Source: Amoebophrya sp. A120 (lineage: Eukaryota > Protista > Dinoflagellata). Taken from it: DNA of 64,000 nt. Shown in pieces: positions 24,831 through 56,984 of this stretch. The notes beneath the pieces were generated by a model, which was given only the letters and a program-made list of their open reading frames with translations, did no database searches and was not told where the DNA came from. The position numbers and the translations under genes are program-made. Numbering within the stretch: position 1 is the stretch's first letter; every line of letters starts with the position of its first letter. Where the stretch lies: the NCBI GenBank assembly GCA_905178155.1, contig CAJINV010000010.1, positions 1,881,182 through 1,945,181 on the forward strand, written 5' to 3'.

Positions 24831-26167
24831 TTACAACACGGCCAACAGTCCCACTACCACGAGCGCCCCGACCAGAGTCGCCCCTAAAACGCAGCCGATC
24901 CGCTTGATCCATTATCCCAAGTGAAAACGTCCCCACACCAGACGAGTCAAGATGGGAAATCTGCTAGACAAATCAGCCAGCTTTGGTTGTTTCGCATGAC
25001 AAGCTTGTCCTCGTTGTGTAATCCTGTTTTGCTAGTTCAGCAGCATCACAGGTCTAGCGTATCATGCTGATTCTAGCATCACAAATTCCAAATCGCGAAT
25101 CGAAAATGCTTCTCATAGGGCTCCGCATGAGAAACATTTTTCATTCGCATACAAAATTGCATGACAACTCTGGAGTGGGGACGTTTTTACACAGGATATC
25201 CATCCGAAAGTCATCACCAGCCCGTCGACTTTCGACCCCACCTGGTCCAAATTCTTATCCACGAAAAAAAATCCACCCCTATCCCTTGTTTGCATGACAA
25301 CCAGCGGACTTGTTGTATGTTTTGCATGTCAAATATGGATGGGGATAGGTGTTTCTTTGTGGATACTTCTCGTCTACCTGTTCCAACTCCGAGTCTAAGT
25401 GATCGACCTTCTCGTCTATCACCGTCTATCCTGTGCAAAAGTATCGCACTCGTACTCATTGCAGAGATGCATGACAAATCCAACTTTCTACCTGAAATAG
25501 CATGACAAATTGCATTTTTTTTCTTGGGCAAATTTGTAGTGCAATTTACAATAGTACGATACTTTTGCAGTCGTGCATACCGTCACTTTCCCGTCCACTT
25601 TCTCGATTCGGATGTTCATATCTTGCAAGCGTTTCTGGAGTATCCACTGTAAAAGTATCGCGCTCGTAGCACTTGCAGCCTCCTCGCATGACAAATCCAC
25701 TTCAGACAGTAGCTGAATCAGGGTTACAAATTCCATTTTTCTTCCTGAGAAAATTTGTAAATGCAATTCCTACTAGTACTACTTACGATACTTTTGCAAT
25801 GCATATGGAGTTGTGTGAAATGTTTCTTCTGCCTCTCGATGATGTCCTTGTTTTGGGATTCAATTTTCGCAAATTTGTCGTTCATCTTCAGCTCGATTTT
25901 TTCCTCCATAGAATGCAACTTCTCATCCAATAAAGTTGCCATCTGCTCCATCTGCTTTTTGTTCAGGTCTTCAAACATTTTCCCGAAGAGAAGAGTCTGC
26001 TCGGATTTGATCAAGTCATTCTGCTGGATGAACATCTTTTTCAGTTGTTCCGTCTCCTTCCGAAATTCGTGGTGGAATAGCTCCTGCTGGATTTTCTGCG
26101 GCAGGGGGTTCAGATCTGCTCGTCCTGAACCGTCTTCATGAAGAGGATTACTACGCTGCTCCTGCAT
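24831..26167 (-). CDS. Partial tandem duplicate: C-terminal coiled-coil plus TM tail of the adjacent gene, starting at MQEQRSNP
   Basis: Near-identical protein to 26669-27806 after removing four introners. Ends IGCVLGATLVGALVVVGLLAVL*. Confidence 0.6.
24913..25198. mobile_element. Introner family D; empty site at 26746
   Basis: TSD TCCAT. Confidence 0.93.
25256..25365. mobile_element. Introner family K, shared by both duplicates (26803-26923)
   Basis: TATCCAC...GTGGATA; flanks ATTCT/CTTCT. Confidence 0.82.
25427..25579. mobile_element. Introner family B; empty site at 26980
   Basis: TSD CCGTC. Confidence 0.93.
25641..25805. mobile_element. Introner family B; empty site at 27036
   Basis: TSD TGGAG. 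Confidence 0.93.
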
Positions 26168-26668
26168 TCGAAGTAGTCGTGGGGTAGTACCAGCAAGCAG
26201 CTATACGGAAAGTTTCGTTGTGCATGCTAGCTTCGCGAAACAGACACGACAACAGAATAAATCTAGGATTTTCATTTTACAAACAACAGAATCAGAATTC
26301 ATTTTCAAACACTAGCTCAACACGAGAATGTAGCTCTTGACGATGAAACACTCCAGGAAGATGAAGAACGTCGGGAGGAGGACCAGGACTACTATATCAA
26401 ATGTAAAAATGTCTGGGTCTGGAAGATTGCCAGGTTTGTCATGCACATTTTGCGCGACTCCTGATGTCTGTGATGCATGCCCTAGCATCACAGATTTTGT
26501 GAGGGCCTCCTGATGCCTATACTGCATGACAAATGCTCTTTCCGTGTAGCAAAACTTGGACTCTCTTTGCTGCTCATGCAATACAGATTTTTTTAGAATC
26601 CAAAATCAGCATGACAAGTTGGATTTTTCCAGACCCAGACATTTTTACAGTTGAAACTACTCATTCTC

Positions 26669-29600
26669 CTACAACACCGCCAACAATCCCACCACCACCA
26701 GCGCCCCGATCAGAGTCGCCCCTAATACGCAGCCGATCCGCTTGATCCATCCGAAACTCATCACCAGCCCGTCGACTTTCGACCCAACCTGGTCCAAATT
26801 CTTATCCACGAAAAAAAATCCACTCCTATCCCTTGTTTGCATGACAACTAGCGGACTTGTTGTATGTTTTGCATGTCAAATATGGTTATGGAAGGATGGG
26901 GATGGTTTTTTCTTTAGTGGATACTTCTCGTCTACCTGTTCCAACTCCGAGTCTAAGTGATCGACCTTCTCGTCTATCACCGTCACTTTCCCGTCCACTT
27001 TTTCGATGCGGATGTTCATATCTTGCAAGCGTTTCTGGAGTTGTGTGAAATGTTTCTTCTGCCTCTCGATGATATCCTTGTTTTGGGCTTATGAAATGCA
27101 AAAATGTCTGGGTCTGGAAACTTGTGATGCAAGTCAGTCAAAAACAAATGCACTGTAATGCGCCGCCAAGCATGACGAGTTGCTTCGTGCTTCTGTGCTG
27201 CAAAATTCCGCATGAGAAACTGCGTTTTGCATGACAGGCGAGAGAGGCTGTTTGTGACCACGCAATACAGATTTAAGGGCCATGCCAGATCAGCATGACA
27301 AATCTCGCAATCTTCCACCAGACCCAGACATTTTTGCATTTGATAGGGCTTCGATTTTCGCAAATTTGTCGTTCATCTTCAGCTCGAGTTTTTCCTCCAT
27401 AGAATGCAACTTCTCGTCCAACAATGTTGCCATCTGCTCCATTTGCTTTTTGTTCAAATCTTCAAACATTTTCCCGAAGAGAAGAGTCTGTTCGGATTTG
27501 ATCAAGTCATTTTGCTGGATGAACATCTTTATGAAGTGCACAAGTATCGTACTCGTAGTAATCGACGCATTTATGTTTTTCTGAAAGGTAAAACAGCATT
27601 ACAAATTCCATTTCTCATGCTGAGGGAATTTGTGATGCTATTAATACTAGTACGTTACTTTTGCAGTTCATAATCTTTTTCAGTTGTTCCGTCTCCTTCC
27701 GGAATTCGTGATGGAACAGCTCCTGCTGGATTTTCTGCGGCAGGGGGTTCAGATCTGCTCGTCCTGAACCGTCTTCATGAAGAGGATTACTACGCTGCTC
27801 CTGCATGTTCTTTCTCCGAGTCTTCGCTTTCACATACGCCGCTGCATTAGGGCCCAATTCTTGGTGGAAGCTGCTGTGGTGGTCGTTGTTGTTCATATCG
27901 TCCACATCTTCTGCAACCTCGTTCATCTCGTTACTCAGTGCGTGAATCCGAGCGGCGATGTCTTCAATCGTGTCCACATTTGAGACTGGGCACTGGTCAC
28001 TGATACTTCCACGTTTCCCCGCGTGTTTCTTTGCAATCGCATCCGCCGCGATGTTCTTTGCCGATGTTGCTTTCTGTTTTCCTTTTCCTTTTGCGGCTTT
28101 TTTTCTTTCTTTCTCTTTCTGTTTTTCCCTTTCCTCCGCCTCGTTTTCCTCTTCCCTCGCTTTTTGGAATAAGCAGCGCAGCGGCCCTATGCTACTGCAA
28201 CCTTTCCTCAGCTTCTTAAATGTTCTCCTCATCGGACTGCAACTGAAACAGGACTTCGGTTCGACGATGCTATCCGAGTCTGTTTCGATCACAACTGGCT
28301 CTCTGCCTTGCAGTTGCAAAAACCCCGCTGGTGTAGAACCACGGTGTGGTGGGGGCACGACATCACCACCGGAACTATAATACTTCTGCAACTGCACACA
28401 GGGGCCGACGCGAACCTCGGATTGCGAGTTTTCAGGTACGGTGCGCGTGCGGTTGCCGCGGCCTGTCATGTTTGACGCAGTTGCTGTAGTCCCGTTGTTG
28501 TTTGCAAGAAATCCGAGATCAAACATGCGCGACGCGTTTATTCTTCTGGTTCTATCTGATGTGCCGTTCTTGCGGTGCATGCTGGTGGTTGTATTTCCAT
28601 TTGTTCCATGTTGCTCCGACACCAAGTCCATACAGGCCTCCACATCAATCTCGTCCAGGTCGCCGAAGGCGGCTTGTCTTTCTTGACCTTCTTGCTTTCC
28701 ACTACTTCCTCCACCAGCAGCTCGTCCCATCTCTCGTTCTTCGTCCCTCGTATTAAGTACAAAAGTATCGTACTCGTATAAATGCATTACAAATTTCCTC
28801 AGCATCATGAGAAATATAATTTGTAATGCGAATTTACCTTAAGAAAAAGATTTGTAATGCATGATTGCAATACGAGTACGACACTTTTGCAAAGGATACC
28901 TCGCGACGGCTAAAAAATCCCGCATCCGCCACTTCGACACGAGTTTCGCCAACTGCTATGGAGTTCGCAAACGTTACACCCTCAACTGTTAGACGAATTT
29001 GTGATGCAAGAATAGCAAAAGTGCAAGGCGGGAGACTGCGCCTTTTGCATTACAAGTTTGGCGCAGATTATATATCATGCTATCTAGTGCGTCGAGAACC
29101 TGTCATGCGAAGCAGCTTGATCCTGTAGATATGTATTGCAATTTTGCACGACAAATTCATGCAAAACAGTTGAGAATGTAACAGTTGAGAACGCCATAGC
29201 TGCATCGTCTTCATTGCTCGGTCCAGTCGCAGGGAAATTTTCCTGAAATCCGTCGCTAAAGTTCTGGAGTGGGCTAGAAGCAACGTCTTCACCTGGGGCG
29301 TTTTTTCGTACATGTAGAGAACGAAATCGTCCCAGTTTTCCGGTTTCTTCTCCTCCGGGATGAGAACGCCAAACTCTTCTGACGGCAATTGCCGCTCCAG
29401 GTCTTCTAGCGTCGCGGACGGCTTGAAAGAGCGTGGCTCCTGTTCCTCGGGGGCGACGCCTTCTTCTGGAATCGTGGCCGGTTCTTGTGCTTGTTGTGCA
29501 GGAGTACCAGCGGCGGGGTTTTTGGAAGATGCAGCACCAGTAGAGCTAGTTGATGAGGCAGTAGTTCCTCGCCGGAACAGCCCACCTGTTGAAGAGGACG

Positions 29601-35406: not shown

Positions 35407-38400
35407 CTAAAACCGGTTCTGCACCTCTTTCAGCACCGCTTGCGCCTCCTCCACGGAGAGTGATTGCAGTAACTGCGTCACCTTCACCCCAATCTGTTCC
35501 TGCTTCATGGCGAGAATTGCCTGTTGCACTTCGTGCTCCTTCTGCTCAAAGAGAATACAGAACGACCGGTCAGACGTGGTTTCATTGTCGATTTTCGCGA
35601 CCTGCAGTAAAATTTTCTCACAGTGTCGCTTCACGTTCTCGGAGACCTTCCTGCTGCTGCCCATAGAAGTCGTCGCAGACGAGGATCCCACGGACGGAGA
35701 TGTAGTCGACACAAAACCACCACCACTAGCATCCACCGCCAGGACGTTCCCAATCCTGCGCCACAAGTCGCACTCGATCAGCCGTCGCTTGATCCGCCAG
35801 TAGAAATAGACGCGGGAGGTTCATGCATTGCAAATCTGTCTGGGTCTGGAAGTATGTTGCGAGATTTCGATTTGTCATGCTTGTCTGGCATCACTCTGAG
35901 TTCTGTATTGCGTCGTGGCCACATACAGCCTGCTACTCTCGCCTGTCATGCAGGAGGACGCAGCTTCTCATGCAGAATACGCAACACAGAACCATGAAAA
36001 ATCTTATACTTGTCATGCTGGGCGGTGCACTACAGAGCGCTATATCGTTTCTAACTTGCATTACAACTTCCCAGACCCACATAGATTTCCAGTTCATAAG
36101 GTTTTCCACTCCACCACGTCCCTGACGCAGCCGACGTTCTTCATTCTCGCCGTATGCAATGCAAAAGCATCGCACTCGTAGTAATTGCATTTATGCATTA
36201 CAAATCTCGTTCTCAAGGCAAATCAGCATTACAAGTTTCATTCTTAATGCTGGGCTAATTTGTAATGCGATTTATACTAGTACGAGGGTACTTTTGCAGT
36301 TCATACGCCGCCCTGTCGTGCAGGTCCGCGTAGTGCAACGCCATAGACTGGTACAAGGGAAGCAACAGCTCCTGCCGCCGGTTGTGCTGGTCCTGTTCCA
36401 GTTTCTTTCCGTTCAATATAACAGTGCACAACTCCCCCTACCCCTCATTTGTAATGCAAAATACCAAATCCAGTCGCTGCTCTGTGGCACCGTTTGCATG
36501 ACAAATTCCGCAAGCCCAAAAAGTACTACCTTGGGAAAAGAAATTTGCCATGCGTAGGCTCTACGTGTGCGGGTGTTTGTATTGCTGCTCATGCCATACA
36601 AATGAGGGGGAGGGGGACTTGTCGTGCGCTCTCATATTCAAAATCGAGTCGCAGCGGTTCATCATTTTGATCAGTTATGGAAGCGTCAGGTTTGAAATCG
36701 ACAAAATTCAAATGATTTGCCATGCATAAAATACAAGGCATGAAGAGCCTGTCGTGCCGGGATAGCAAGCGAGGCCGATTGTGAGGGTGAGCCTGTTTGG
36801 GGTTTATTGAAATAGAGCTACTAAACTCGCATGACAAAAGGAGTCTTCTGTACCCAAACAGCATGACAAATTGGATTCCGGTGCTCGAAAAATTTGTCAT
36901 GCGCCGCTTGATAAGTGGGCTTCCGACTGGTATCTGTTTTATGCATGGCAAACTGTTTCAACTTTGACGATTTCAAACCTGACACATCCATATCAGCGTC
37001 GGAGGCCGTAACTTCACGTCGATCGCCCCGGCGGGTTCCAGGATTCCGCCCCGCGAAGAGTTGTCCGCGTACATTTCCATAAAATCCGGGTTGATGCTCG
37101 GATATGAATTACAAAAGTCTCGCACTTGTAGTAATTGCAGTTATGCATTACAATTTTTTTTCTTGAGGTCAATCAGCATTACAAATTCCAGTTCTCATGG
37201 TCATGCTGAGGAAATTATTTGTAATGCTATTCATACTGGTACGAAGCTTTTGCAATTCATATCGGGTCAATCACCACCCACGCGCCACCACGTAATTCCG
37301 CATGCGGTGGGAGGTAGACAAACACCGGATTTTCGTACTCGACCAACGCGTCGACGATTTGCGCGCCGTACTTCAATATGGATTGTAAAAGTGTCTGGGT
37401 CTGGAAGGTTGGAACTTGTAATGCTAGCTTTCCATACCTAGAAAATCTGTATTGCATAACCAACAAAAGTCGCAGCCTCTTTTGTCATGCAGAAACGCAG
37501 TTTCTCATGCGGATTGCCTATGAGAAAGCGTTTCGGGAAGTTGTCATGCCGAACTGCATTCGGAAGTGTTTTCATCATGGAGATTTTAGCATCACAAGGT
37601 TCCAGACCCAGACACTTTTGCATTTGATATTCAAAATCTCCATGAACATGTCCCGCGTTCCGCCGGAAAATCCTCGCCAATTCGCGAAAATCATCAAAGG
37701 TAGGTTTTCCCGGTTGAAATCCTTGATCGCCGATGCGGTTTTGTATGCACTGTCGGGGAACCACACCTGCCCGGCCTGACTGTCCTCCACCACCGCGGAA
37801 TCCAAATTCGCAGGGTCGGCTGGTACATACCGGGACACCGCTCTCGTCTCCACCGCAATGCAGCCGATCGGGATCCCGCCCAGTCGGCCCCTGCCGACGA
37901 CGACCGTTTTGCCCCACTGGGAGAGCACTTCGACGAAGGAGTTCTGGTCCAGAAAACCCGTGAAGTCATTGTCCGGAGTGCCTTGCAGCAGAAAACGCGG
38001 GTCGTAAGTCGTGTTGGGGGAAGAGGGCTGGAAGGTGACAAAACGGTCGACGGTTTCTTGCTCGGTGACTTGTCCGTTGTTGGTACTAAGCTGTGCAGCT
38101 GTTCCGGTCTGCTGAGACAAGAGTTGCTTGTTCAGGTTCAAGTCGCTGCTGTCGGTGGTGCTTGTTGTTCCGGAAGTAGCCGCGACAAAGTTCTGGTTCA
38201 TCTTCTGCAACACAGGTTTAGAACCACCAGCGCCGCTACCGGGCCGACTAGTATCACTGCTAAACCCAACGGGCAACACCGGCAAACTCCCGCCCTGCCG
38301 CTTCGGCACGAAGCTGAGCCACTCTATGAAGCAAAAAAGTGTTATAACGTGAACGGTTTTCACAGAGTGCAGTCACGCATGACAGATTGTGGCTAATATG

Positions 38401-41400
38401 CATGCTGTGCATGACAAATTTTGTCGCGTTTTGTGATGCGTCGCTGCGTCACAGATTCCGTTAACGCTAACTACACTTTTTTCTGTGATACATTCCAGGA
38501 TCCGCTCACACCCCTCCTGGTCGTTCTCGACCAGAAGGTGCGTAACCCCGTTCGGACACATCACCTGCGGGCCGCCCAGCTGGTCTTGCGACGTGTACAC
38601 CTGTCTCCCCAGGAGCTTGTTCAGTGCGGAGAAGCCGGTCAAGATCATCGGTCCGTGTCTCTGCTGGATGATTCGACTGGACAACCGGTTCACGTACGCG
38701 CCAATCCCGACGGACCTGCCCGTTACGTAGGAGAGGGTAAAGGTCTCCTGATACGCCCGGGAGGTTTCGTATCCTATGTAAAAACGTCCCCACCGCATAG
38801 TCAAGATGGGGAAGCGGCTAGACAAGTCCACAAGTTTTTGGCTGTTTTGCATGACAAATGTGGACTCGCAGTGTAGTGCTGTTTCATGTAGTTCAGCAGC
38901 ATCACAGATCTAGCATATAACGCTGCTTGGCGCATCACAAATCCCAAAACACCTGCAGAAAATGCTTCTCATGGGGCTCCGCATGACAAACATTTTGAGC
39001 ATGCAGATTTGCATGACAACGCTGGGGTGGGGACGTTTTTACACAGGATATTTCGCCCGCGATCATGGCGGAGCCTTTCAGATTCTCCACGCCGATTCCC
39101 GATCCGCCGATAATAGCGTTGATTTTGTATTTGGTGATCTCGGTCTTTGTGGTGCTATATCCTGTGCAAAAGTATCGTACTCGTAGTAATTGCATTTATG
39201 CATTACAAATCTGGTTCCCAAGGCAAATCAGCATGACAAATTCCATTTTTCATGCTGAGCGAATTTGTATTGCGATTACTACTAGTACGATACTTTTGCA
39301 ATTCATATGCTATCTTGCTCCACAATCTTCTCCACCACCACGTCGTTTTTATGCTTCTCATACCCCTCCTCATCCAGCCACCAGTACTCAAACCCGGACG
39401 GTAAGTGGTGGTGCGAGGTCTCCGCGCTCGGGGTGACGGTGAAGTGCGGTTTCACGGAATTTTCCAAGTTATCCACCATGCCCACTCTTGCACCGGAGTT
39501 GGACGCAATGTAGACGAAGGGGAGGCCCGTTTTTCGAGCAAATTCCGCGGCTTGCTTGTACATGAGGTCCTCTTTCACGCCGAAGGAACCCGCTTTATGC
39601 GTGATGTCGTTGGCGACTAAGACGATGAATCTTCCGTCTGGGAACTCCTGCGTTTTCAAGTGCGCGATCCAGCAAATCATCCCGATCTCGTTATTTGCAA
39701 TGGGCCGGTTCGTTGGGTGCAGTTGGTGCTTCTTCAACAGATCCCTGATTGGGGTCGTGGTGTCGTCTTGGAAAGACGAGGAAGTGCTGTTCAAACCGGC
39801 TCCAGCACCAAAAGCCGGCGGCGACAACGTTTCCGCGGGAGACGGATCATTGGAATTCGAGTTCAACACATGCACGGCCGCTTGGTGACTGGAACTTCTT
39901 CTCGGAATCGCCTGCGCAAGAAGATTTCTACTCAGCAAATTTTGGGCGTCCTGGCTGATCGCAGTAGCTGCGTTTCCTCCCCCACCGGCGACGGAGGAAA
40001 AAGTTGGGCTGGAGGCGATTGCTCCAGTGCCCGTTTGAGAATTTATTCCCTGCTTCAGCTTCTTGTACTCCTCATCGGCAATGATTTCGATCACGGTGAA
40101 GGACCCGACGCCGGAATTGATAATATCGGTCGCGTATCCTGTGCAAAAGTATCGCACTCGTATAAAAAATGCAAGTCTTGCATTACAAATTTTTTTCTTA
40201 AGGTAAATCCGCATGACAAATTTTATTTCTCATGCTGGGAAAATTTGTAATGCATTTATACGAGTACGATACTTTTGCACTTCCATATCGCGCCGACGCT
40301 AGTGGTCCCGCCCCGATGGTCGCCGGCGTTCAGTTGTGCAGCAGAAGTAGAATTATACCCCTTTGTCATGTTCAACAGCGCCATTTTCAGGAGATGCGGA
40401 AAGTCGTAGACGTAAGTGGATCCAGCCTGGTGCGCGACCGTTCTCTTCTTCGAGATCGCTTGCTCCAGGGACTTCTGCGAAGACTGGTTCTCGTCGGCGT
40501 TCAAGTTGGGGGCGTTCATCATGCCTGACACCAAGTGTGCCAAATCGACCGATCGGGTCACTTATGCATGGCAAAAGTAGCGCACACGTACTAATTGCAG
40601 ATATGCAATGACAAATCTGTTTCCGAGGGTAAACTGCCATGACAGACTCCATTTTTCATGCTGAGCAAAGTTGTAACGCAGTTTCTACTAGTGCGTTACC
40701 TTTGCAATGCATATGACTTCCCCGGTCAACGGGTTCAAGTACTCCAAATACGCCTTCGGCTGCAAGTACTCGGCTTCCGAACTCGCCACCATGCGGAGGT
40801 TCTCGCCCGAGACTAGCCTTAATTTGAATTCCACGGTATCCACCCGGTATTTCAGCAGCGCCTTCACAAACCCGGACAGCGAACTCAAAATCGACGCTTC
40901 GTAGCCCCGCATTACCACAGACGGCGAAAACGCCAGTCGGGTCATCACGTTGATGAAGATTTTCGCCGGGATTTGTTGATTTCCCGAACTCATGGTGACT
41001 CTCTTGTCCATCCGCGCTCTTGCCAGCTCGTCCAACGCGTGGGTTAGCGGGATTTCGACCGGGAGGAAGAATTATCAAATGCACAAATGTCTGGGTCTGG
41101 AAGGTTGGAACTTGTGATGCTATTTCCGGACTCTAAAAAAATCTGTACTGCATGACCAGCAAGAGGGGTCTAGTTTGTGCTACGCGGGGAGGGCGTTTGT
41201 CATGCGAAGTAGGCATCAGGAAGCCCTCTAAAAATCTGTGATGCTAGGCCGTGCATTACAAACAACCTGGGTCATGCAAAACATGCATGACAAGTTTCAG
41301 AATCTTCCAGACCCAGACATTTTTGCATTTGATAAGAATTCCGTCTCATCGGTCAGGGGGAGTTGGAGTTGCCCGGATAATTGCTGCCCGGTCCCACGGT

Positions 41401-44400
41401 AGTTGTCATAGGAAACAGCGCGGATCTCCAGGTAGTTTTTGTTCAGCAAAGCCATGCAGTGAGCCGAGATTTCCGGACCGATTCTTTGCGGGATGTTGTT
41501 GCGCAGTTGGTCCGTGATTTCGAGCAGGTGGCCGAATGTTGGCCGGAGATTGCGGACCAGAACGTCTTCTGCGAAAAAGTAGAACTGCGGTTGCTGCTGG
41601 ATAGGAGAAATACCCGTTTGCTGCGGCACAACTGCGGCGGTCGTTGCAGTTGCACCACTCGTAGCTGGTAAATTTCTCCCCAAACTCTGGCGGTTCAAGA
41701 ATTGGTAGCTTTCGTACGCACCACCGCCCGTCCAGGTTAAGGAAATCCGGTGCAATTCCACGTATTCCGACCCGGTCAACTGCGAGCCCTTGTTGTTCAA
41801 CTCTGTCAAGAGCATCTCCGCGATCTCCTGGGTGGTGCCATTCATTGACTCACACCTCTCCGACGCGTAGAGGATCCACAGATCGTGCAGAACCGGCAAG
41901 GGCGCGGTTTCGAGCGAGTACTGATCCGCGACGAAGTTGCTCATGGAAGGGGATGCGCGGAGATGAGAAGACGTCCTCTGCGGGATTTGATTCGTACTGT
42001 TGCTGTTAATATTCCCAGTGCTTGAAGATCCACCTATCGCTGCCTGCTGAATGCTCATCTGCGCTAACTCCGACAAGTATTGCGGCTTGAGCAACTTCTT
42101 CATCTCGGACACTGATTGAACCACCACCACCAAACCATTGCAGGCCGGAATGAAGGACCCGAAACCGGAAAAACTGTTCCCCACGCCCGGAAAGCGGAAC
42201 TTCCAGCCCCTTGCGGAAGTGAACACTTTCTGGGTCTGGTGCATGGAAGATGAGTTGTACTGCTGCTGGTGTGCGCTTACTGTTCCCAAAGTGTTGTTGT
42301 ACTGGTTCTATGAACTGCAAAAGTATCGTACTCGTGCAAATGCATTACAAATTTCCTCAGCGTGAGAGATAAAATTTGTCATGCGGATTTACCTTAAGAA
42401 AAAGATTTGTAATTCAAGACTTGCATTTATACGAGTACGAAACTACTTTTGCACAGGATAGGTTCAAACTCACGCCGGAATTGCTCGCCGTGTCATTTGA
42501 CAAAGTCCGGTGGTCCGGTATGGAAGTGTCAGGATTGAAATCTTCAAAGTTGAACTAGTTTGCGATGCATAAAATGCAACACACAAAGTGCCTGTCTTGC
42601 AACGTAGGCAAGTGAGGCAGATTGTAAGCCTGTTGAGGGGTAAAAAAAGAGATGCTAAAGTAGCATGACAAAGGGCGTTTTCCTTACCCAGACAGCATGA
42701 CAAACTGGATTTAGACTCTTCCTAAATTTGTCATGCGCCACTTGAAAACTGGCCGCCAACTGCTATCGGTTTTATGCATGACAAACTATTTCAACTTTGA
42801 CGATTTCAATCCTGACACATCCATATCCAGCAACGGTGAGTTATTGTCCCGATCCCCGCCCCGGCTGGAGCCCCCGCCGCCCCCGCCACCCAGCGGGCTG
42901 TTCATGGTAGAGGTTGTGGTTGTCGGGAACATCAAATTTGCGTTCGGGTATTCCAAATAATCCAATTCCGGCCCAACCTGCAGCCCCTCGTAACCCCTAA
43001 AAGTCCGGTAGATCAGCAATTCCAGGGCTTGCGACCGGAGCTTTTCCCGTTCGAAGTTCGTTTGCACGCCGAGAAAGCCGCCGAAGGAGCTTCCTGCAGC
43101 ACCTTGGTGGTATAGATGTGTCAGAGTTGAAATCGACAAAGTTGAAATCGAAATGATTTGCCATGCATAAAATGGATGCCAGTTGGAACCCAGTTTCCAA
43201 GCAGCGCATGACAAATTTTGGCGGTGCCTGAATCCAGTTTGTAATGCTGTTTAGGCAAAGAAGACTGATTCTCTCATGCTGCCTCAGCAGCTCGACTTAT
43301 AACCCCAAACAGGCTGACAATCGGCCTCATTTGCCTGCTCTGCAACACACGTATTTCGCGCCATGCATTTTATGCATGACAAATCATTTCAACTTTGTCG
43401 ATTTCAAACCTGACACTTCCATAGGACGGCGCTTCCGAGTATCGGGTCGAGGTGGACTACCTTCGGTGGCGATAGCAAATATGCAATACAAATTTACTGT
43501 ACATGTACAACGTGCATCACAAATTCCCCCCACTTGCAGCATGGAACTTGTCATGCTACATAGGATTGTAAAGAAAATCTGTCATGCAGAGCCAGCATTG
43601 GTACGTGTACGGGAAACTTACTATGGATAACAAATGGATCAAGTTCATCAGCGTCTTCGACTGCGGGGCGGAAGTTAAATTCGCCGTGTCCGCGTTAATC
43701 CCGCCCGCACCGAGAGAATTCCGTCCGCTGTTCGATCCGGACCTGACGTAAGAGGTGGAGCCAGCGGAAGAGATGTCCTCGATCCATTCCTTTCCCTGCT
43801 GCACCGTGTTCAGGTTCACATACGTCCTCGCGTTTTCCCTCAGTATCCTCAGGAAATTTTCCGCACACGTCCAAATGTGGTTTCCGCATGACAAACTTTT
43901 CCTTCAACGCTCTGCAGCATGACGAATTACTTCTTCCAAGTTGGTGAAACTAGATATGTGATGCATTTTGTAGATGTAGTACGGAAAATTTGTATTGCAT
44001 ACTCAACAACCTCGTGCACTTCAGCCCTAGTTCGCCGTACCGCTCAGACAAATTCTCCGCGAAGGACTGGATCGTCTGCTTCCTATGCACTGCAAAAGTA
44101 TCGCAGAAGTACTAAAATTGCAGGCATGCATTACAAATCTAGGTTGTTAAGGTAAATCCGCATTACAAATTCAATTTGTAATGCTGAGATAATTTGTATT
44201 GCAATTTCTACTAGCACGATACTTTTGCAGTTCATACTTCCCGAGGATCAGTAACTTCGAATCAAACTTTTGCAGAATCTCCAAGGCGACCGACAAACGG
44301 GAGTGGAGTTGGGATTTTGCGAAGAAAATTTTGTAGATTTTGTCGATGGTAAGGTCGGGGTTGTCGTCTCGTATCATCTGGTGGAGGACTTGCTCGTTGC

Positions 44401-47400
44401 TTATGTTCAACACCTGGTTTATTTGACCACTCTGCGATGTCATGGGAAGGAAATACCGCTCGGTCTTCAAAAAATCCTGAAGTAACTGCAACCCTTCCTC
44501 CACGGTCTCGGGTAATCGCAGTTTTCCGTACCTCGGGTACCCCTGCAGTACCGCCGCGGCGTCTTGGAAAGTTGGAACGTCCTCGCCCGTGGCAAAAAGT
44601 TTTCTCCCCTCGGAAATTTCCGACCACTTTTTGATAGTGACGGCAGGGCCCTGATGAAGTGCGGATTTTGATGATTGTTTTGTTTGATTTACCATGATGA
44701 CCCTTTTTATCAGGTCAAGATATGCATGCCGCAATGAATGTCAACGCCCTCCTCGTGGCGCCGTCTAGTTGTCAAATAGTAGGCGCCATGCAATAAACCA
44801 AAGGGCTTCAGCACCAATTTAGTTCCTTTAGAGTCACAAATTCTATACCTGTCCCGCCAATTCCATCTTGAGCAGCAAATCTCCCGCCCCAACCACGGCG
44901 TTGCTGGTTCCGATCAATTTTTCGACCTTCCCCGCAAACCTCGCCTTCACCGGCACGATCATCTTCATCGCCTCCAATTCGCAGCACACCTGCCCCTCGG
45001 CGATCTCATCCCCTTCGGCGACGAGAAAGCGGATCAGCCTCCCCTGTACGTCCGACCGCAGCTCCGACGGGTCCGTCGCGTTCGGAATGAAAACCTCGTA
45101 GCCAGACATGGCCCCAATCCGTAGCCGCATCCCCGTCAACTCCGACGTGGAGACGATTTTCGTCGACGGGGTCACAATTTTCCCACAAATTGCGCGGATA
45201 AAAACCGCGTTCTGGTGCGGCTTCGTCTGGATGATACATTCGGAATTGTCGTCCTTACACCGACAACAATACCGGTGCTCCGCGATCCGGGTGATGTGAA
45301 AGGTGTACTTCACCTGGTCCCAGACGACAATCACCTCGGGTATGGAAGCGTCAGGATTGAAATCGACAAAGTTGAAATAATTTGTGATGCATAAAACGGA
45401 TACCAGTTGGCGCCTAGTCTCCAAGTGGCGCATGACAAATTTGGGTAGAGCCGAAATCCAGTGCGTCATGCTGTTTGGGTAAGGAAGACGCCTTTTGTCA
45501 TGCTACTTCAGCAGCTCAGTCTCTACCCCTCAACAGGCTGACAATCTGCCTCCCTTGCCTACTCTGCAAGACAGGCACTCTGTGGGTTGCATTTTATGCA
45601 TCACAAACTATTTCAACTTTGTCGATTTCGATCCTGACACACCCATATCGGGGAAGCTGTAGGTTTGGAGGAAACTGTGGACCAGCTGGCCCTTCTGCAA
45701 CGTGTCCTGAAACTGCTCCTGGGCTTCCTTATCCTGTGCAAAAGTATCGTACTCGTAGTCATTGCGATCATGCATGACAAATATCCCTTTTTAGGTAAAT
45801 CAGCATTACAAATTCCATTTTTCTTCTTGAGAAAATTTGTGATGCAATTTGTACTAGTACGATACTTTTGCAATGTTGCATATTCCTTGCTCATCTGCAA
45901 CGCTTTCGCCACCGCGCAGTACAGAATGAAGTCCTCGCAATTCAGAATTTGGGATAGCGAATCAAACTGATTCTGTATCAAAAGGACAAATCCCCCCTCC
46001 CCATATCGAAAAGGAAATCTGTGAAGCTGGATTTGCGTACACAAATCAGATTTGTCTTGCAATAGAGGACTGCACGCAGATCGCAAGCCTAGATGGGGGC
46101 CTTTTGGTGTAGGCACCTAGGACGGCAGGCGTCTGCCGTGTAGGCCTCAAAGCATTACAAATCGCCCGCATAGTGTGGCAGAGAGCCTGGCTTTGCCTTC
46201 TAGCAAGACAGACAGGATGTGTGGTCACAAATCTGCATCACAAATTTTCAGAAGATACGTTTTCAATATGGGGAGGGGGGATTTGCCCTTGCAATATTCT
46301 GCCCCGCGGCGTTCACCAACTGGTTCTGTCTGGACTTCGTTTTCGCGTACTGCACCAGTCTGCTGTTGCTCGCTTGTTGCAAATTCGTACCTCCGGAAGC
46401 CCTCGGACTGGCCCCCGGCTGCTGGAGGTTATTAACCGATTGAGTATCCACCGAGTCGCCCCACGCGACGGAAGACACCCGGCCGTCGTCGGAGTAGGCG
46501 CAGCTATCCTTTCCGTAAAAGTCCTCGTTGAGAGAGGACGTTGCGGTCAGCATTCCCGGGATGGTCTGGACCAACCTCGCGATTTCCTTGTTTTGAATCA
46601 GTCCGTCCAGCCACGCGGTGTCCACCTGGTTGTCAACAAACCTGTTTAGCCTCAACAGCTTCGGCAAAACGTCCACCGTGTTCCGGATGTCCCCTTCCAC
46701 GTGCAAATGCCCGAGGGAGATGATCAACGCCTTCCGCGCCTGCTCCCGCGTTTGCCCGATGCTGAAAATGTGGCCGAATTGGCTGTCTGCGAACTCGTGG
46801 ACCGCACCGGGCGTGGCGACGGAGAAGTATCCCCAGACGGACTCGTGCGTTGGCGCGAAGTCGATATGCAGTGGAAAAGTATCGTGCGTAGCAGTATACT
46901 GCAATACAAATTAGCGCAGAATGAGGAATGGAATTTGTCATGCTGATTTAGCTCGAAAAAGAGATCTGTCATGCATGTCTGCAGCTAGTACAACTACGAC
47001 TACGATACTTTTGCAGTGCATAGTCGATCTTCCGGATGTTTCCGCTGCAGGGGAGAAACCCGTCCTCCGGGTTTTCCGCCGTGATGCGCGCGGCGATGCA
47101 GTGAGAATACATGGGGACTTTCCTCGTGAAGTCCAGCTCCTTGATGTAGTTGCTTGTTGTTTCGCCTTGTCCACCGTCTTTGTTTTGTTCCTCGATTCCG
47201 CGAAGAAAGTACCTCCTGATGTCCGTATGCATTGCAAATTTGTCTGGGTCTGGAAGATGAGTGCAGGGTTTGTCATGCTTGTCTGGCATGACTGTTAACT
47301 CTGTGATGCTTAGGAGCGAAAAGATGATCCTCTCGCCTGTCATGCAAAAATGGAGCCTGCCATGCGGAATACGCAACACGCAGGAGCTCAAAAACTTGTC

Positions 47401-49598
47401 ATGCTTGGTTACCTATTGCAGTACGCTCAATATTTAGAGACTTGCATCACAAGTTTCCAGACATCCAGGCATATTTGCTTTTGATAGTCTGGAATATCGT
47501 GCAACGCCACCCCCATCCCGATCTGGAGCTGCGCGGCCGGTATGTTTACCCCCGTGATGCACTCTGTCACTGGGTGCTCCACTTGCAGCCGCGGGTTCAG
47601 TTCCAGAAAGTAAGCTTCTTTGCGCTTCGGGTCGTACAGGTATTCCACCGTGCCGGCGCCTCGGTACCCAACTTGCCTCGCCAACCGGCAGGTATGGTGT
47701 GAAGAAATATCGCACTCGTACTAATTGCAAATATGCATGGCAAATCTATACTCCTAAGGTAAAACAGCATGACAAACTCCACTTTTCTTCTTGCCAAATA
47801 AATTTGTAATGCAATTCATACGTAGCACGATACATTTGCAATGCATAGCAGGCCGCCAGCTGCATCTCGTGAAACACGTCCGGGTCCGCGACCGTCGGTG
47901 GACCCTCCTCAAAGATCTTCTGAAACCTGCGCTGCGTGTATTACAGTGCACAACTACTCCTCTCCACTCAGTTGCCATGCAAAACCCCGAATCCAGGCTG
48001 TGCCTCTTGGCAATGTTTGCATGACAAGTTCTAGTAGCCCAAATAGCACGACACTCCAGTGTAAACTTGTCATGCAAAACCTGCATTCTTGCCCACGCTT
48101 GTATTGCCGTTCATGCTATACAAATGAGAAGGAGGAAAAGTTGTGCACTGTGGTCATAGCGTGGAGCAATCCCTCCCCGACAAGGCACACACGTTCCCGT
48201 GCTCGTCGCCCAATAGTTGCACCTCCAAGTGGCACGCGCCGGAGCTGTACTTCATAATGAAAATCGGGGAATTCACCACCTTATCCTATGCAAAAGTATC
48301 GCATTCGTATGTATAAATGCAAGTCTTACAACATTACATTTTTTTTCCTCAAGGTAGACCCGCATTACAAATTTTATTTCTCATGCTGAGGAAATTTGTA
48401 ATGCATTTATACGAGTACGATACTTTTGCGATTCATACACCTCCATCTGGCACAGCGCGTAGTTGTTCTTCACATCTTGGCTGTTCTCGCATTTCCGGAT
48501 TCCCTTCCCGCCCCCGCCCTCCGACGCTTTCAGCATCACCGGGTAGCCGATGCGGTTCGCCTGCTCGACCGCTTCTTCCACCGTCTGGCAACAGGCTTTT
48601 TCGAACAGTTCGTCCAAGTCGTCGAAGGTTTTCAACTGTTTCGACTTCAAGCCGTCACCGGACCAGGGGATGCAGGGAACTTCCGCGGTCTGTGCCATGA
48701 TGTTCGCGTAGATTTTGTCCCCCAGAAGCCGCATCACCCTCGGTTGCGGCCCGAGAAACACGATTCCTAATTTCTCCAGCGCCTCTGGGAGCTCCGGCTT
48801 TTCGCTGGCGTGGCCCCAGCCAGGCCAGACTGCGTCGCATTTCTCTTGGACGGCCACTTTGCAAATCAGGTCGACGTTGGCGTAATTGTTCAGGTTCTTA
48901 CCTGATACAGTTTGTAATTGTAAGATTGCAGCTTTGATGTAGTTATTTTTCATGCTATAATCTGCATCAGAAAACAGGTCTGTCATGCATGCCAAACCAC
49001 CGGACCATCTCCGAACTTTCCGATGATATGAAATCGCAACCGCCATACATGAAAAATAGTACCTCCCGGCACCTCCACAAACGAGTCCACCATTTGCAAA
49101 AACTGCTATGCATTGCAAATGCATCGCGCTAGTACTAGTAGTGTAAATTGCATCACAAATTTCAGCAGGAGGAAAATAATTATGCTGATGTACGTTTACT
49201 AATGACATTTGTCATGCATTAATATAAGTACAATTACTACAATTACGATGCACTTTTGCGAATCATAACTGGGCGTTCGCCGCAATATCTTCCGGCGTGG
49301 CCATCGCGACAAAACTCAAGCACCGATCCAGGTTGGCACGCGTCTTCAGCACCTCCAGCACTTCCCATCTTCGCATGGACCGAATCGCCTTCACCGCAGC
49401 TAAACCATTCGACGCGATCAGAATCCGGGAAATCACCCGCTTCCCCTTCTTTTCGGAGACAATGTAGTTCTGCAGGGCCTGCCTCCGTTGGTCCATCGGC
49501 TCCGGGAGGTCATCCTCGGGGATCACCGTAGTGGAGTGATCCACCAACACCATGGCTTCTTTACTTGTCCGCGGGGAATATACCAGACGCGTGGACAT
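35407..49598 (-). CDS. ACC: Multidomain (homomeric) acetyl-CoA carboxylase; about 27 introner introns plus 2 GT-AG introns
   Basis: BC domain: [86 protein letters not shown]. Biotin site: ELEAMKM. CT domain: [63 protein letters not shown]. Confidence 0.97.
35822..36098. mobile_element. Introner family A in ACC
   Basis: TSD AGGTT; removal restores [14 protein letters not shown]. Confidence 0.9.
36153..36305. mobile_element. Introner family B in ACC
   Basis: TSD CGCCG; removal restores [11 protein letters not shown]. Confidence 0.92.
37377..37629. mobile_element. Introner family A in ACC
   Basis: TSD TTCAA; removal restores [12 protein letters not shown]. Confidence 0.93.
38325..38490. mobile_element. 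Introner family L in ACC
   Basis: Flanks CACTC/CATTC; removal restores ILEWLSFVP. Confidence 0.88.
38770..39050. mobile_element. Introner family D in ACC
   Basis: TSD TTTCG; removal restores MIAGETSRAY. Confidence 0.95.
43480..43629. mobile_element. Introner family I (others 11195-11374, 43844-44001, 57446-57596)
   Basis: TIR TAT.CA...AA.TTT.C.GTACA.GTAC; flanks GCAAA/ACAAA. Confidence 0.82.
44651..44848 (-). other. Probable canonical GT-AG intron in ACC
   Basis: CAG|GTATAG...CATCAG|GGC removes in-frame stops and joins MELAGQ to GPAVTIKKW. Confidence 0.6.
45341..45647. mobile_element. Introner family C in ACC
   Basis: TSD TCGGG. Confidence 0.9.
46865..47022. mobile_element. Introner family B in ACC
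   Basis: TSD GTCGA; removal restores [17 protein letters not shown]. Confidence 0.92.
47939..48158. mobile_element. Introner family G in ACC
   Basis: TSD GCGTG; removal restores RDCSTQRRFQK. Confidence 0.94.
48282..48437. mobile_element. Introner family B in ACC
   Basis: TSD CACCT; removal restores [12 protein letters not shown]. Confidence 0.92.
48902..49062 (-). other. Canonical GT-AG intron in ACC
   Basis: GGAG|GTACTA...TATCAG|GTAAG joins VEVPG to GKNLNNYAN (conserved ACC motif). Confidence 0.85.
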
Positions 49599-50543
49599 AA
49601 TTTTTGAAGCGTAGTTTATTGTTCGGGTCAAAAAATATCAACGGATGTTCTTGAAACAACTTCAGATCGTAGAAAGAAAAACAACTCGACATCTCATCGT
49701 AAAAACTAACTTTCAGAAGGTTCAATTGTTGGAAAGAGACACGACCGTCACTTTTTTTTCCGAAAATGAGACAAAAAAAATGAAGTTCTACTGGTTGCGG
49801 ATACACTAGAACTAGACACCAGCAGTATGATACTCTAGTTCTACAAATCAGGGGCTGAAATAAAAGTAGCTAGCTCTCACTTCATTTTTCTTTTTGCCAC
49901 CTCCCATTATTTGCTTAGCTCTCTCGTCGTCAAGGACAAACAATGTTTGTTGTTGATCATGCCACCTTGCCACACCCCAATAAATTTGCCACATTTCTAC
50001 TTTGATGCCGGCTAGTTTGTTTTTTGGGTTCTTGAACACTTTTCAATGCTACTTCGCCGTGTTTTCTTGCGGTCCCCTTCTAAAATATCCATGACATGTT
50101 GGTATCGCCTTGCTTGATTTATCTTCTCGCTCCAAGAAGCAAGCTGGCAGTTCTACTTACCAAGGTCGACCGAAAGTCTTTAGGAAGGAGTTTAACTGCT
50201 CATTGATCCTTACTGTGGACAAAAGTCGTCTTGTTTTAATTGTGGATCGACAACATTTTTCTGCCGTCAACATCGTCTGCAAGGATGTAAGTCGTTTATC
50301 GTGGCTGCCAAGCGCCAGTCTTGCGACAGGAAGAAGGAAAATATGTAATCACATTTACTCCACATAAGAACTGTCAGAAAGATTTTGAAGATGTACGAGT
50401 ACGTTGATGCTTTATTTTTCTTCAATTTACTTATTACTTCAAGTGTAAGTGTGGGGACCACCAGCTCAGGGAAAAATATCTGCCGCAACTGTAGTACTTG
50501 CACATGTTTTGTAGTACTGCAACCGCTAGTACCGCGACCGCCA

Positions 50544-54376: not shown

Positions 54377-56984
54377 AGGCTTTTTATTGGGCGATCTGAG
54401 CTACGTCCTGACTGCGTCACTGGCGTATAACGAACGGAAAACATTTGTAGACTCGACGCAGCTCCTAAAAGTGGATAGAAGTCACTTAGCGTTAGGAAAG
54501 CAGCTCATGGATAAACAAATCAAATGATTGAAATAAATGCAATCGGCCCAAAATACCACAAATCGAGTCGAGGAGCCTTCTTCTGGCTGCTGAGATTTCA
54601 AATTGAAATTACAAACAGGCATGGGCAGGCTACGCTGCAATCTGCTTTGGAAGTATAATGAACACTAGAGCTGCGCGACGAACGCAAGCGCTGGCCTTGC
54701 TTGTTGGGACAGGTGTCGCGTGTCGATCAATCTTGGCTGCCCGCGGCTTTGTGCAATGCCTTTTCTTGCGCAAACTATCGCACACTCACGCAGACCAGGC
54801 GTGGCCCATCTACGGACTGCTGCAGATTGCGTGATCAGAGTGAGCAGGCTGGCACCAAAGACAAAAGGCCACGCGCGGGGCAACGAACAGACACTCACAC
54901 ACGCCCGGCCAAACTCCTGGCCTTGCGTCCCTCCCCCGGAGTGAATCAATGGAATGGAACCTACCTGGCAAAGAGGCTGCAGCCGCGCGGGCGGGCACCG
55001 CGCGCCCGCGCGCCGAGCAAGATAGCGGCGCCACCCCTCCGGTTCTTTCTTTCATTGATTCAAAGCGAGAGGGAGGCGCGTCACAGCCATCCAACAGGCC
55101 AAACACTGCGCAACCCCTCCACCTTCCTGGGCCAACCACAGCGCGCGGGCACACTGCAGACAACGGCAAGAGACACGCCACAACCGGGGGGCCAGCTCCC
55201 TCACCCCCGGGCACTTGGCCGGCGCCTTCCCTTTCGCTTTCTGCCAGTCGCGAACCCATTGCCCCGGTGGCGGGGGGGCCGGCGGGCGCGCTGCCGCGCG
55301 GCGACCTGCCTGCCGGCCTTGGCGACCCTCTTCTTCTCCACGGAGGTCGGGCCATCCTTGGCCTTTCTCGTTCAGAAAGAAAGAAGCCGACGGACCAGGG
55401 CGGGGGCGAAGGCGGCTGGCGCCGCGGGTCGTGGCTGACTCCTTCGCGAACCGGATCCGCTTGGCCGGCTTCTTCGCCTTGAAGTCCGGGGCGATCTCAC
55501 GGGCGAACGCGGGCGCTTGCTTGTCGTTCATCGGAAGCGTCTTGCTTCGTGCGCAACTGACTCGATCGCGATCGGAATCTTGATCGGAATCGCGTGCATC
55601 TTTTCCAAAGCAGTGGCCCCCGCCCGCGACCGATCCACGGCCGGCCGGCCCCAAAACGGCGCGGGCACAAGCTGGCCAGCGGCCCAAGGGGCCGGCCCGG
55701 CCGGGCGCCGGCCTGCGGGCGTCCACGCACCCAAAAGGGGCGCAAAAGCATACTGCCGGCGGCGGCGAGGCAGCCTACCTGCCTGGCTGCCAAGGAAGCC
55801 CGCCTGGCTGCGGCTGGGAACACGAACACACCAAAACCCCAACAATAAACACACACCGCGGGCGTCTGCCGGGCTGTCTCTTGGCTCTCGCACAACAATG
55901 CCCGCTGCGGAGCCACTTCCGGAGCCGCGCGCCGCTCGGTCGCCCCCAAGGGCGCGGCGAAGGCAGCCGGGGGCCGTCTGGACGGCAGTCGGTGGGGAAT
56001 TCAATTGATCGGCGCGCAGCGGCGCTGGCGCGGGCGCGCCAAAAGCGCCGGCGCCGGCCTCCACCCCGGAAGCGCCCCCGAAGGAAGGGGGCGCGGGCGC
56101 TGGGGCACGCAGGCAGGCTGGCAGAGCCGCCGCAGCGGCAGACCGCGGCCCTTTGCTACAAAGCTCCGCGGCCTCCGGCCAGGGGATGGCCCGCCGCGCG
56201 GGCGCGGCCCTTGGGCTTTGCGGCGGGGCCTCCCGCTCGGCCGCACCGCCGGCCCCCCCTTCCCAACCGGCCGCCCGGCCCCGCCAAAAAGGCCGCGGCG
56301 GACAACACCCCCCCGGCGGGCTCCTTCCTTGGCGCGGCTGGCTCACACGAAGCGCCATTGGTGGAAAAGCTTCGCGGCTCGCTGGCGCGAACTGCTCAGC
56401 GCCGCCGCCCGCGGCTTGTGGCAATGGCCCGGGGCCGCGGCCGGTGGGGCTGTTGGCCGGCCCACTCGTGAGGCGCGCTGCCCTTCTCACCTTGCAGCGA
56501 TCCGGGCGCCCGCTCTGGCAGTTTTCGTAAGATCAAGCGCTCTCATCTGGACCACAGAGATAGGCTCTTCACGAGCAACAAGAACATCCTGCGAAGCTAG
56601 CACTCCGCCTGCGAAGGTGCAAATCGTCGCTCGTAGCTCGCTGCTGAATCAGAACTACAGCTACAAACGCTACCTACCAAAGTTAATAAGATGAGACCCT
56701 ATCATCACGCTGCACCTACAACTTCAACTTCTACATTTGGTTTGTCATTATTTCTCCTCGTCAACTATCGACGACACACGGTGCCATAAGCTTCAGTCAG
56801 ACTATGTCAATGCGGGTCAAAATGGAAGCCATCGACACGACTCGGTGAGCCTCATCACGTGTATGTGTTCAGCAAATCGCTTTCACTTTTCTATAAAAAT
56901 TTAGATTTCGCGATCTTCTGGGAGTATCACTGTCAAACTTTGGTTGCGTTCTACTTGCGACATTCATCTATCGTTCTGTCGACT

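What the first reader, a model, noticed from the sequence alone, without database searches (positions are those of the whole stretch)
35407..49598. Core metabolic gene split by ~27 transposon-like introns lacking GT-AG ends
Seen: ACC is interrupted by elements with TAT...ATA ends, TIRs and 5-bp direct repeats. Deleting element plus one repeat restores conserved motifs exactly ([37 protein letters not shown]). For 38770-39050, every junction register across the TSD gives ends CG..TA, GA..AC, AA..CG, AA..GA, AT..AA or TA..AA, never GT/GC-AG or AT-AC. Known: non-canonical introner elements with inverted and direct repeats are described in Amoebophrya, and their removal mechanism is unresolved as far as I know. 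Inference: a precise excision system reads element ends or structure rather than spliceosomal dinucleotides.
Basis: partly seen in the sequence, partly recalled or inferred. Interest (0 to 1): 0.9.

Follow-up and report, generated by a model that had tools for sequence, protein, structure and literature searches.

The report
Transposon introns cut at fixed offsets
A fat-synthesis gene of the marine parasite Amoebophrya carries 27 short transposon copies that are cleanly missing from its likely RNA, an oddity already published; new here is that the cuts fall at fixed offsets (1 base before, 4 after the element), likely made by a relaxed spliceosome guided by a predicted hairpin.

Summary
Observation confirmed. 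The minus-strand acetyl-CoA carboxylase gene holds 27 TAT…ATA elements with 5-bp repeats plus 2 ordinary GT-AG introns. Removing them gives one open frame. Contigs of probable RNA runs skip element+5 exactly: 14 of 14 joints read one by one, and summed lengths fit all 27. The window is Amoebophrya sp. A120, whose TAT-ended, direct-repeat 'introner elements' were described in 2021, so the class is known.

Where the two repeat copies differ (16 testable elements), the message keeps bases 1-4 of the upstream copy and base 5 of the downstream copy every time. The intron is therefore N-TAT…ATA-NNNN, cut 1 nt before and 4 nt after the inverted repeat. This matches the TA(T) of the local canonical donors at +2 to +4, but 270 elements show no preference for G at +1, for AG, or for orientation.

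Best reading: a hairpin-anchored ruler, likely run by a relaxed U2-type spliceosome (0.5). A spliceosome-independent cut-and-ligate system as proposed for Euglena remains a strong rival (0.35). The catalyst was not tested.

The parts
35407..49598 (-). Acetyl-CoA carboxylase gene (BC, BCCP, central, CT domains), 30 exons, 29 introns
   Evidence: whole-gene contig
44651..44848 (-). canonical GT-AG intron (GTATAG..CATCAG)
   Evidence: skipped length fits contig
48902..49062 (-). canonical GT-AG intron (GTACTA..TATCAG)
35818..36099 (-). element intron at 1+4 register (core 35822-36098; 3' end ATG)
36149..36306 (-). element intron (core 36153-36305)
36413..36637 (-). element intron (core 36417-36636)
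36672..36993 (-). element intron (core 36676-36992); upstream copy kept at repeat base 1
37099..37262 (-). element intron (core 37103-37261); upstream copy kept at base 1
37373..37630 (-). element intron (core 37377-37629)
38321..38491 (-). element intron (core 38325-38490); upstream copy kept at base 3
39154..39308 (-). element intron (core 39158-39307)
40131..40288 (-). element intron (core 40135-40287)
40559..40714 (-). element intron (core 40563-40713); upstream copy kept at base 4 (sets lower bound of register)
41069..41335 (-). element intron (core 41073-41334)
42305..42461 (-). element intron (core 42309-42460)
42515..42826 (-). element intron (core 42519-42825); upstream copy kept at base 2
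43107..43424 (-). element intron (core 43111-43423); upstream copy kept at bases 2 and 3
43476..43630 (-). element intron (core 43480-43629); DOWNSTREAM copy kept at base 5 (sets upper bound of register)
43840..44002 (-). element intron (core 43844-44001); upstream copy kept at base 1
44080..44237 (-). element intron (core 44084-44236)
45337..45648 (-). element intron (core 45341-45647)
45726..45883 (-). element intron (core 45730-45882)
45972..46297 (-). element intron (core 45976-46296)
46861..47023 (-). element intron (core 46865-47022)
47222..47487 (-). element intron (core 47226-47486); imperfect repeat, kept base not read
47689..47848 (-). element intron (core 47693-47847)
47935..48159 (-). 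element intron (core 47939-48158), splits RDCST|QRRFQK
48278..48438 (-). element intron (core 48282-48437); the only one readable as GT-AG at any register
49103..49268 (-). element intron (core 49107-49267); upstream copy kept at base 1
   Evidence: (piece starts at 49267 with no other letters)

Best explanation
The 27 inserts are short non-coding transposon copies (terminal inverted repeats ending TAT..ATA, 5-bp target duplication) that are absent from contigs of probable RNA runs, cut out at fixed offsets of 1 nt before TAT and 4 nt after ATA, likely by a relaxed U2-type spliceosome that uses the element's predicted hairpin as its guide. Shown: element anatomy, about ten families inserted in both orientations, exact removal of element+5, and the 1+4 register in all 16 testable elements. 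Inferred: DNA-level insertion by a cut-and-paste or integrase-type transposase that makes a 5-bp duplication; pairing of the two ends in pre-mRNA brings the sites together in place of U1/U2AF recognition; the element's U-A-U serves as donor positions +2 to +4 with any base at +1; the acceptor is set by distance from the stem, not by AG. Because 1+4 equals the 5-bp duplication, any insertion in either orientation restores the codon sequence, which would explain how these elements colonise an essential gene.
For: Removal: one 8845-nt contig spans the gene with 0 other letters in the listed pieces, and skipped lengths equal the model in 7 of 7 intervals covering all 29 introns. In one search, 14 of 14 joints in 36640-44060 skip core+5 in 4 of 4 runs (2 samples, 1 study). 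Retention would break the gene: 17 of 27 shift the frame, 10 of 10 others carry stops. Register: of 30 window elements with unequal repeat copies, 16 were testable (17 sites). The upstream base is kept at positions 1 (5 of 5), 2 (4 of 4), 3 (3 of 3) and 4 (2 of 2); the downstream base at position 5 (3 of 3). Nine elements come from contigs and seven from A120 annotated proteins. This is about 1000-fold likelier than a uniformly random register. At two position-5 sites the ortholog of another strain has the residue coded by the downstream copy, so the upstream base (intron +1) drifted from G to A. Ends are conserved: 1 of 126 terminal-3 positions differ from the family majority against 90 of 546 at positions 4-16 in ACC members. 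Elements fold far below shuffles (z under -3 for 24 of 27; the canonical introns -0.7 and -1.4). Spliceosome link: all 5 canonical donors read in the window start GTA, 3 GTAT and 2 GTAC, and only 1 of the 6 possible registers puts TA at +2/+3. U at +2 never changed among 23 variant-ended copies while its partner A changed in 7. Farhat 2021 finds U2, U4, U5, U6 and 83 of 89 spliceosomal proteins but no U1 in A120, lists nine predominant A120 site types that all have T at +2, and reports A25 ends starting TTA.
Against: No catalyst evidence at all. In 270 elements with a trusted frame there is no enrichment of G at +1 (A77 C71 G70 T52) or of AG at the acceptor (23 of 270), only 14 could be GT/GC-AG at any register, and there is no +5G orientation bias; no family shows orientation bias. 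This total indifference is odd for a spliceosome. Pairing of TAT with ATA would hide the donor (predicted pairing probability of the terminal triplet averages about 0.6). Neither A of ATA is invariant in coding copies, so ATA is not an obligate branch point. The +2 asymmetry is mostly A-to-G, which RNA wobble pairing explains equally well, and strand was uncertain for 10 of those 23 copies. The register's bounds rest on 2 and 3 elements; only one of each comes from contigs, the rest from gene models. Runs are only guessed to be RNA, and contigs drop rare forms. A codon-usage test on 60 mismatch sites in the second assembly was inconclusive. A general G.U-over-A.C strand bias in the stems was not found (147 vs 135).
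Confidence: 0.5

Rival explanations
1. Same elements and same 1+4 geometry, but removal is by a spliceosome-independent, structure-reading endonuclease and ligase (or a domesticated transposase-related protein), convergent with the nonconventional introns of Euglena.
For: Complete indifference to +1 and acceptor bases and to orientation; strong hairpins; G lost at +1 in two elements. Euglena uses fixed spacers from paired end motifs (N3 and N5-6, a similar 2-3 nt longer 3' arm), and its authors favour non-spliceosomal factors and circular products (PMC12501133). One stem position shows a transcript-strand wobble bias of 27 to 2.
Against: The register places TA(T) exactly at donor +2 to +4, as in local canonical introns, a 1-in-6 coincidence, apparently repeated by A25's TTA (from annotation only). 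A120 keeps a near-complete spliceosome, and the tunicate Fritillaria shows that a U2 spliceosome can be retooled for transposon introns. No candidate enzyme was sought or found.
Confidence: 0.35
2. The join slides within the 5-bp repeat (homology-guided), with 1+4 only the commonest product.
For: Differences between repeat copies are synonymous more often than expected if one copy were free: 52 of 90, expected 46-48%, p 0.014-0.04. No stop codon in either copy among 60 sites in the second assembly. Farhat describes variable sites. Contigs hide minor forms.
Against: 17 of 17 informative sites fit one register; four runs give identical joints; one removed copy does carry a stop (10860). The window-only excess is not significant (18 of 30, p 0.03-0.13) and could come from recombination with empty alleles.
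Confidence: 0.07
3. Elements are excised from DNA in an expressed stage or nucleus, like ciliate internal eliminated sequences.
For: Transposon-like ends and a duplication that is restored on removal; the element-free runs are only guessed to be RNA.
Against: The element-free contigs also lack the two GT-AG introns, as spliced RNA would. In DNA-like run X1, single contigs run through elements and both flanks (37605-38806, 40254-41100, 48408-49800) at depths of 45-48. Strand-linked asymmetries point to RNA.
Confidence: 0.05
4. Reverse-transcriptase template switching at hairpins with direct repeats makes false introns, and the gene is broken.
For: Hairpin plus short direct repeat is the classic substrate for such artefacts (recalled knowledge); all RNA evidence here is cDNA-derived.
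Against: Every one of the 27 would kill the protein if kept, yet the frame and motifs are intact. Protein-level conservation against an ortholog follows the same register. The switch would have to occur after 1 base of homology in every case.
Confidence: 0.02

Closest known systems
Amoebophrya sp. A120 introner elements / non-canonical introns (Farhat et al. 2021, PMC7789003)
   Same: Same organism (two neighbouring genes match A120 proteins CAD7961545.1 and CAD7961543.1). Inverted repeats start TAT, then 7 variable bases, then AAA; direct repeats at the borders (5 bp in their example); repeated families; RNA-supported; predicted hairpin.
   Different: Nothing in kind. The paper calls the splice sites variable or unknown relative to the hairpin; here they resolve to one 1+4 register. 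[quoted passage not shown]
[quoted passage not shown] 2025, PMC12130899, supplementary file 8)
   Same: 5-bp target duplication, TA termini, terminal inverted repeats, tens of introners per gene.
   Different: That family is about 810 bp with Copia/Gypsy-like ORFs; the ACC elements are 150-321 bp. Relationship to family 38 was not tested.
Euglena nonconventional introns (code N3CDG..CH'GN5-6|R; Nomura et al. 2025, PMC12501133)
   Same: MITE-like origin, paired ends, cut sites at fixed spacers from the paired motif with a longer 3' arm, repeats at the junctions, coexistence with GT-AG introns.
   Different: Motif TAT/ATA rather than CAG/CTG; spacers 1 and 4 rather than 3 and 5-6; no purine rule at the exon start; unrelated lineage; circular products not tested here.
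Fritillaria borealis non-canonical introns (PMC13326754; review PMC11282704)
   Same: Transposon-derived introns with TIR and TSD that escape GT-AG, handled by a modified U2 spliceosome.
   Different: Fritillaria has preferred ends (AG-AC, AG-AT), keeps U1 and has duplicated U2AF; here +1 and the acceptor dinucleotide are unconstrained and U1 was not found.
Aureococcus/Micromonas and Polarella introners (as reviewed in PMC7789003 and PMC11282704)
   Same: DNA transposons that become introns on insertion.
   Different: Those carry or co-opt GT/GC and AG; these do not.

Membership tests
Amoebophrya A120 introner elements | Lies in an A120 genome | tested here: met
   Exons of two neighbouring genes match A120 annotated proteins (100% and 96% over the matched parts, the latter with intron read-through)
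Amoebophrya A120 introner elements | Non-GT-AG intron supported by transcripts | tested here: met
   the runs are guessed, not recorded, to be RNA
Amoebophrya A120 introner elements | Inverted repeat starting TAT, 7 variable bases, then three or more A | tested here: met
   position table; family end majorities (one family has AGG at 12-14)
Amoebophrya A120 introner elements | 3-5 nt direct repeat overlapping the borders | tested here: met
   5 bp
Amoebophrya A120 introner elements | Repeated in families | tested here: met
   10 families cover 73 of 77 window elements; 388 copies in loci L001-L151
U2-type spliceosomal intron | GT or GC at the 5' end | tested here: not met
   5 of 27 in ACC and 70 of 270 overall start GT at the supported register, as expected from base composition; only T at +2 is shared
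U2-type spliceosomal intron | AG at the 3' end | tested here: not met
   23 of 270
U2-type spliceosomal intron | Branch point and lariat; dependence on U2/U5/U6 | not testable with these tools
   no same-strain raw reads; neither A of ATA is invariant
MITE / non-autonomous TIR DNA transposon | Short, multi-copy, terminal inverted repeats | tested here: met
MITE / non-autonomous TIR DNA transposon | Target-site duplication of fixed length, arbitrary sequence, both orientations | tested here: met
MITE / non-autonomous TIR DNA transposon | Cognate autonomous element with transposase; empty-site DNA allele | not tested
   no whole genome held; no orthologous locus among the best matches shown for L001-L151
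Ginger DNA transposon | TG..CA termini and integrase-like transposase (termini recalled, not from a call) | tested here: not met
   termini are TAT..ATA; PMC12130899 itself says A120 family 38 lacks Ginger termini; transposase not examined
Euglena nonconventional intron | CDG..CH'G motif at spacers 3 and 5-6, purine at exon start | tested here: not met
   motif TAT..ATA, spacers 1 and 4; first exon base purine in 148 of 270
Euglena nonconventional intron | Excised as full-length circle without lariat | not testable with these tools
   needs RNA biochemistry

The most novel reading that the evidence does not exclude
A120 has a second splicing code, N|TAT..ATA-N4|, read as a ruler from the base of an RNA hairpin by a spliceosome-independent (possibly transposase-derived) machine. 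Its 1+4 geometry equals the transposon's 5-bp duplication, so that every insertion anywhere in any orientation is silently repaired, a convergent twin of the Euglena code in an alveolate.
Probability: 0.3. Interest if true: 0.85.

Novelty: already known. Interest (0 to 1): 0.52.

Why it matters
The elements are published, but how about two thirds of this organism's introns are removed is an open question, and their borders were reported as unknown. A single cut register turns an ambiguous annotation into a defined substrate. It says where to look for lariats or circles, which bases to mutate, and what A25 should show. It also suggests why a 5-bp-duplicating transposon can flood essential genes. 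If the spliceosome does it, it works without G+1, AG and apparently U1; if not, alveolates have a second mRNA splicing machine.

Tried and rejected
No whole genome is held, so no genome-wide tally, snRNA search or transposase search was possible. No listed holder is on record as RNA. A protein search with an exon at 14472-14921 found nothing. Three of four hits were unrelated repeat proteins and were dropped. Codon-usage test of which repeat copy is coding, 60 sites in 197 of 352 elements with a trusted frame: signs weakly agree, inconclusive, no stop-codon cases. +5G orientation bias seen in the window (24:14, p 0.14) vanished in 270 elements (65:68): rejected. Synonymous excess looked strong in ACC alone (8 of 11) but is weak over all trusted frames (4 window elements with uncertain frame left out). 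General wobble bias in stems: not found. ATA as obligate branch point: weakened. Rfam: no match at gathering score. Earlier findings: three look-ups returned nothing. The window catalogue of 77 was selected on TAT/ATA, so end conservation was judged only on the ACC set and on homology-defined copies. Roy et al. 2023 (Curr Biol) is not held and may bear on novelty.


Full report
Observation. Deleting each with one 5-bp repeat copy, plus two GT-AG introns, gives a single frame of 2661 aa from ATG 49553 to the stop at 35407; an in-frame ATG at 49598 adds 15 residues. Exons carry Pfam biotin carboxylase, biotin-lipoyl and carboxyl transferase matches (5 of 8 stretches with hits), and conserved motifs rejoin without gaps against homologs. 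Kept in, 17 of 27 elements shift the frame and the other 10 contain stops.

Organism and class. Exons of two neighbouring genes match annotated proteins of Amoebophrya sp. A120. Farhat et al. 2021 (PMC7789003: abstract, sections 10, 11 and 16 whole, passages of others, supplement text parts 2 and 3; no figures seen) describe A120 introner elements with inverted repeats starting TAT, seven variable bases and AAA, and 3-5 nt direct repeats. They report RNA support, a near-complete spliceosome without a detectable U1, and borders that are variable or unknown. Gozashti et al. 2025 (PMC12130899: passages and supplement rows; files 13-14 not searched) list an A120 family with 5-bp TSD and TA/TA termini. 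The elements here meet every listed feature. The window holds 77 catalogued elements, 73 in ten families, in both orientations although the genes I could model are all on the minus strand. Loci L001-L151 from another assembly hold the same families; 312 of 388 homology-defined copies have exact projected ends, and the repeat is 5 bp only.

Removal. Four runs guessed to be RNA hold about 0.55 of the region's words, against 0.8 for two DNA-like runs. One 8845-nt contig spans the gene, and the lengths it skips equal the model in 7 of 7 intervals. For 36640-44060 all 14 joints appear in 4 of 4 runs (2 samples, 1 study), each skipping core+5, with no other letters. The same contigs lack the GT-AG introns, and DNA-like contigs run through at least three elements with both flanks. 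This argues for RNA-level removal and against a pseudogene. Contigs drop rare forms, and the DNA joint table was truncated.

The cut register, the new point. A perfect repeat hides the cut, but 30 of 77 window elements have unequal copies and 16 could be read. From contigs: upstream base kept at repeat position 1 (36676, 37103, 43844, 49107), 2 (42519), 2 and 3 (43111), 3 (38325) and 4 (40563); downstream base kept at position 5 (43480). From A120 annotated proteins: upstream at 1 (20406), 2 (17933, 10860), 3 (11195) and 4 (11389); downstream at 5 (19486, 19824) (one search read by eye). The only single register that fits is four bases of the upstream copy plus one of the downstream copy, about 1000 times likelier than a uniform random register. 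An ortholog from strain AT5.2 has the downstream-coded alanine at both non-synonymous position-5 sites, so there the intron's first base drifted from G to A. This support does not depend on reverse transcription. The intron is thus N-TAT..ATA-NNNN. Limits: the two bounds rest on 2 and 3 elements, seven of sixteen come from gene models, and an independent codon-usage test was inconclusive. I found no statement of this register in searches. [quoted passage not shown]

What is read. Terminal triplets are conserved far more than the rest of the inverted repeat (1 of 126 against 90 of 546, ACC members of five families; subfamily variation inflates the latter). Elements are predicted to fold into long hairpins. 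In 270 elements (197 from loci, 73 from the window) the +1 base, the acceptor dinucleotide and the orientation are unconstrained. The register places T-A-T at +2 to +4; the five canonical donors I could read start GTAT (3) or GTAC (2). Among 23 variant-ended copies of 362, the +2 U never changed and its partner A changed in 7, mostly to G; both A's of ATA vary in coding copies.

Mechanism. Shown: anatomy, exact removal, and 1+4 offsets in all testable cases. Inferred: insertion by a transposase making 5-bp duplications, and hairpin-guided juxtaposition of the sites. For the catalyst I favour a relaxed U2-type spliceosome (0.5), because of the donor-like +2 to +4, the retained U2/U4/U5/U6 and proteins, the missing U1, and the Fritillaria precedent (PMC13326754: abstract and first part of the discussion; review PMC11282704 section 6). 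A spliceosome-independent ruler is nearly as good (0.35). It explains the indifference to G+1 and AG, and Euglena has a genetically defined code with fixed spacers from paired end motifs (PMC12501133: abstract and passages; diplonemids PMC12621601: abstract only). Sliding joins (0.07), DNA excision (0.05) and artefact (0.02) are disfavoured. Other Amoebophrya strains use GT-AG introns (PMC12005148: passages). PMC12787238 (passages) added nothing.

Verdict. Real, and a member of a published class; not a new system. The value lies in the resolved cut geometry, which makes the published open question directly testable. Interest 0.52.

Noticed in passing
~150-nt family, inverted-repeat position 21 (e.g. 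window 39158-39307, 44084-44236; loci L001-L151): Mismatches between the two arms are polarised by transcript strand: U.G wobble 27, C.A 2 (window 7:0, loci 20:2), in both family orientations, while all other stem positions show no bias (147:135). Unexplained; a site-specific RNA pairing or sequence requirement, or a strand-biased mutation hot spot.
   Followed up: partly
all elements, window and loci: Insertion phase is biased: the first repeat base is a third codon position in 131 of 270. Target preference versus codon composition not separated.
   Followed up: partly
all elements: Differences between the two repeat copies are synonymous in 52 of 90 sites, mildly above the 46-48% expected if one copy were free; minor alternative joins or recombination with empty alleles could cause it.
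   Followed up: partly
window elements: A 9-nt word GCAT[GTC]ACAA and its complement occurs 180 times in 17.9 kb of elements (72 of 77) against 13 times in 46.1 kb outside, across all large families; candidate transposase or splicing-factor binding site.
   Followed up: partly
window 11375-11388: A 9-nt exon between two elements is present in the annotated A120 protein CAD7961543.1, so the system appears to handle micro-exons.
   Followed up: partly
window 1828-2094 and about 26390-26660: Two family members missed by the end scan; the second has degenerate ends and lies between modelled genes, as expected if ends are kept only in coding sequence.
   Followed up: no
window 48902-49062: This GT-AG intron contains, by eye, words resembling the element motifs (not matched by my pattern) and folds no better than shuffles; possibly an old element that became canonical.
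   Followed up: no
window 4888-5570: Longest element (683 bp), a singleton inside a reading frame; not examined for transposase remnants.
   Followed up: no
window 25256-25365 and 26803-26923: Two similar 110-121 bp TAT..ATA hairpins near gene ends, left out of the catalogue.
   Followed up: no
run X9 laid on window 37384-37426 and 41073-41334: Raw RNA reads under the same species label match only element ends (90-99%) and no exon: a diverged strain with related elements, in which an element is present in RNA reads.
   Followed up: no
window 54662-56700: GC-rich stretch (about 62%) with overlapping long ORFs on both strands and no elements.
   Followed up: no
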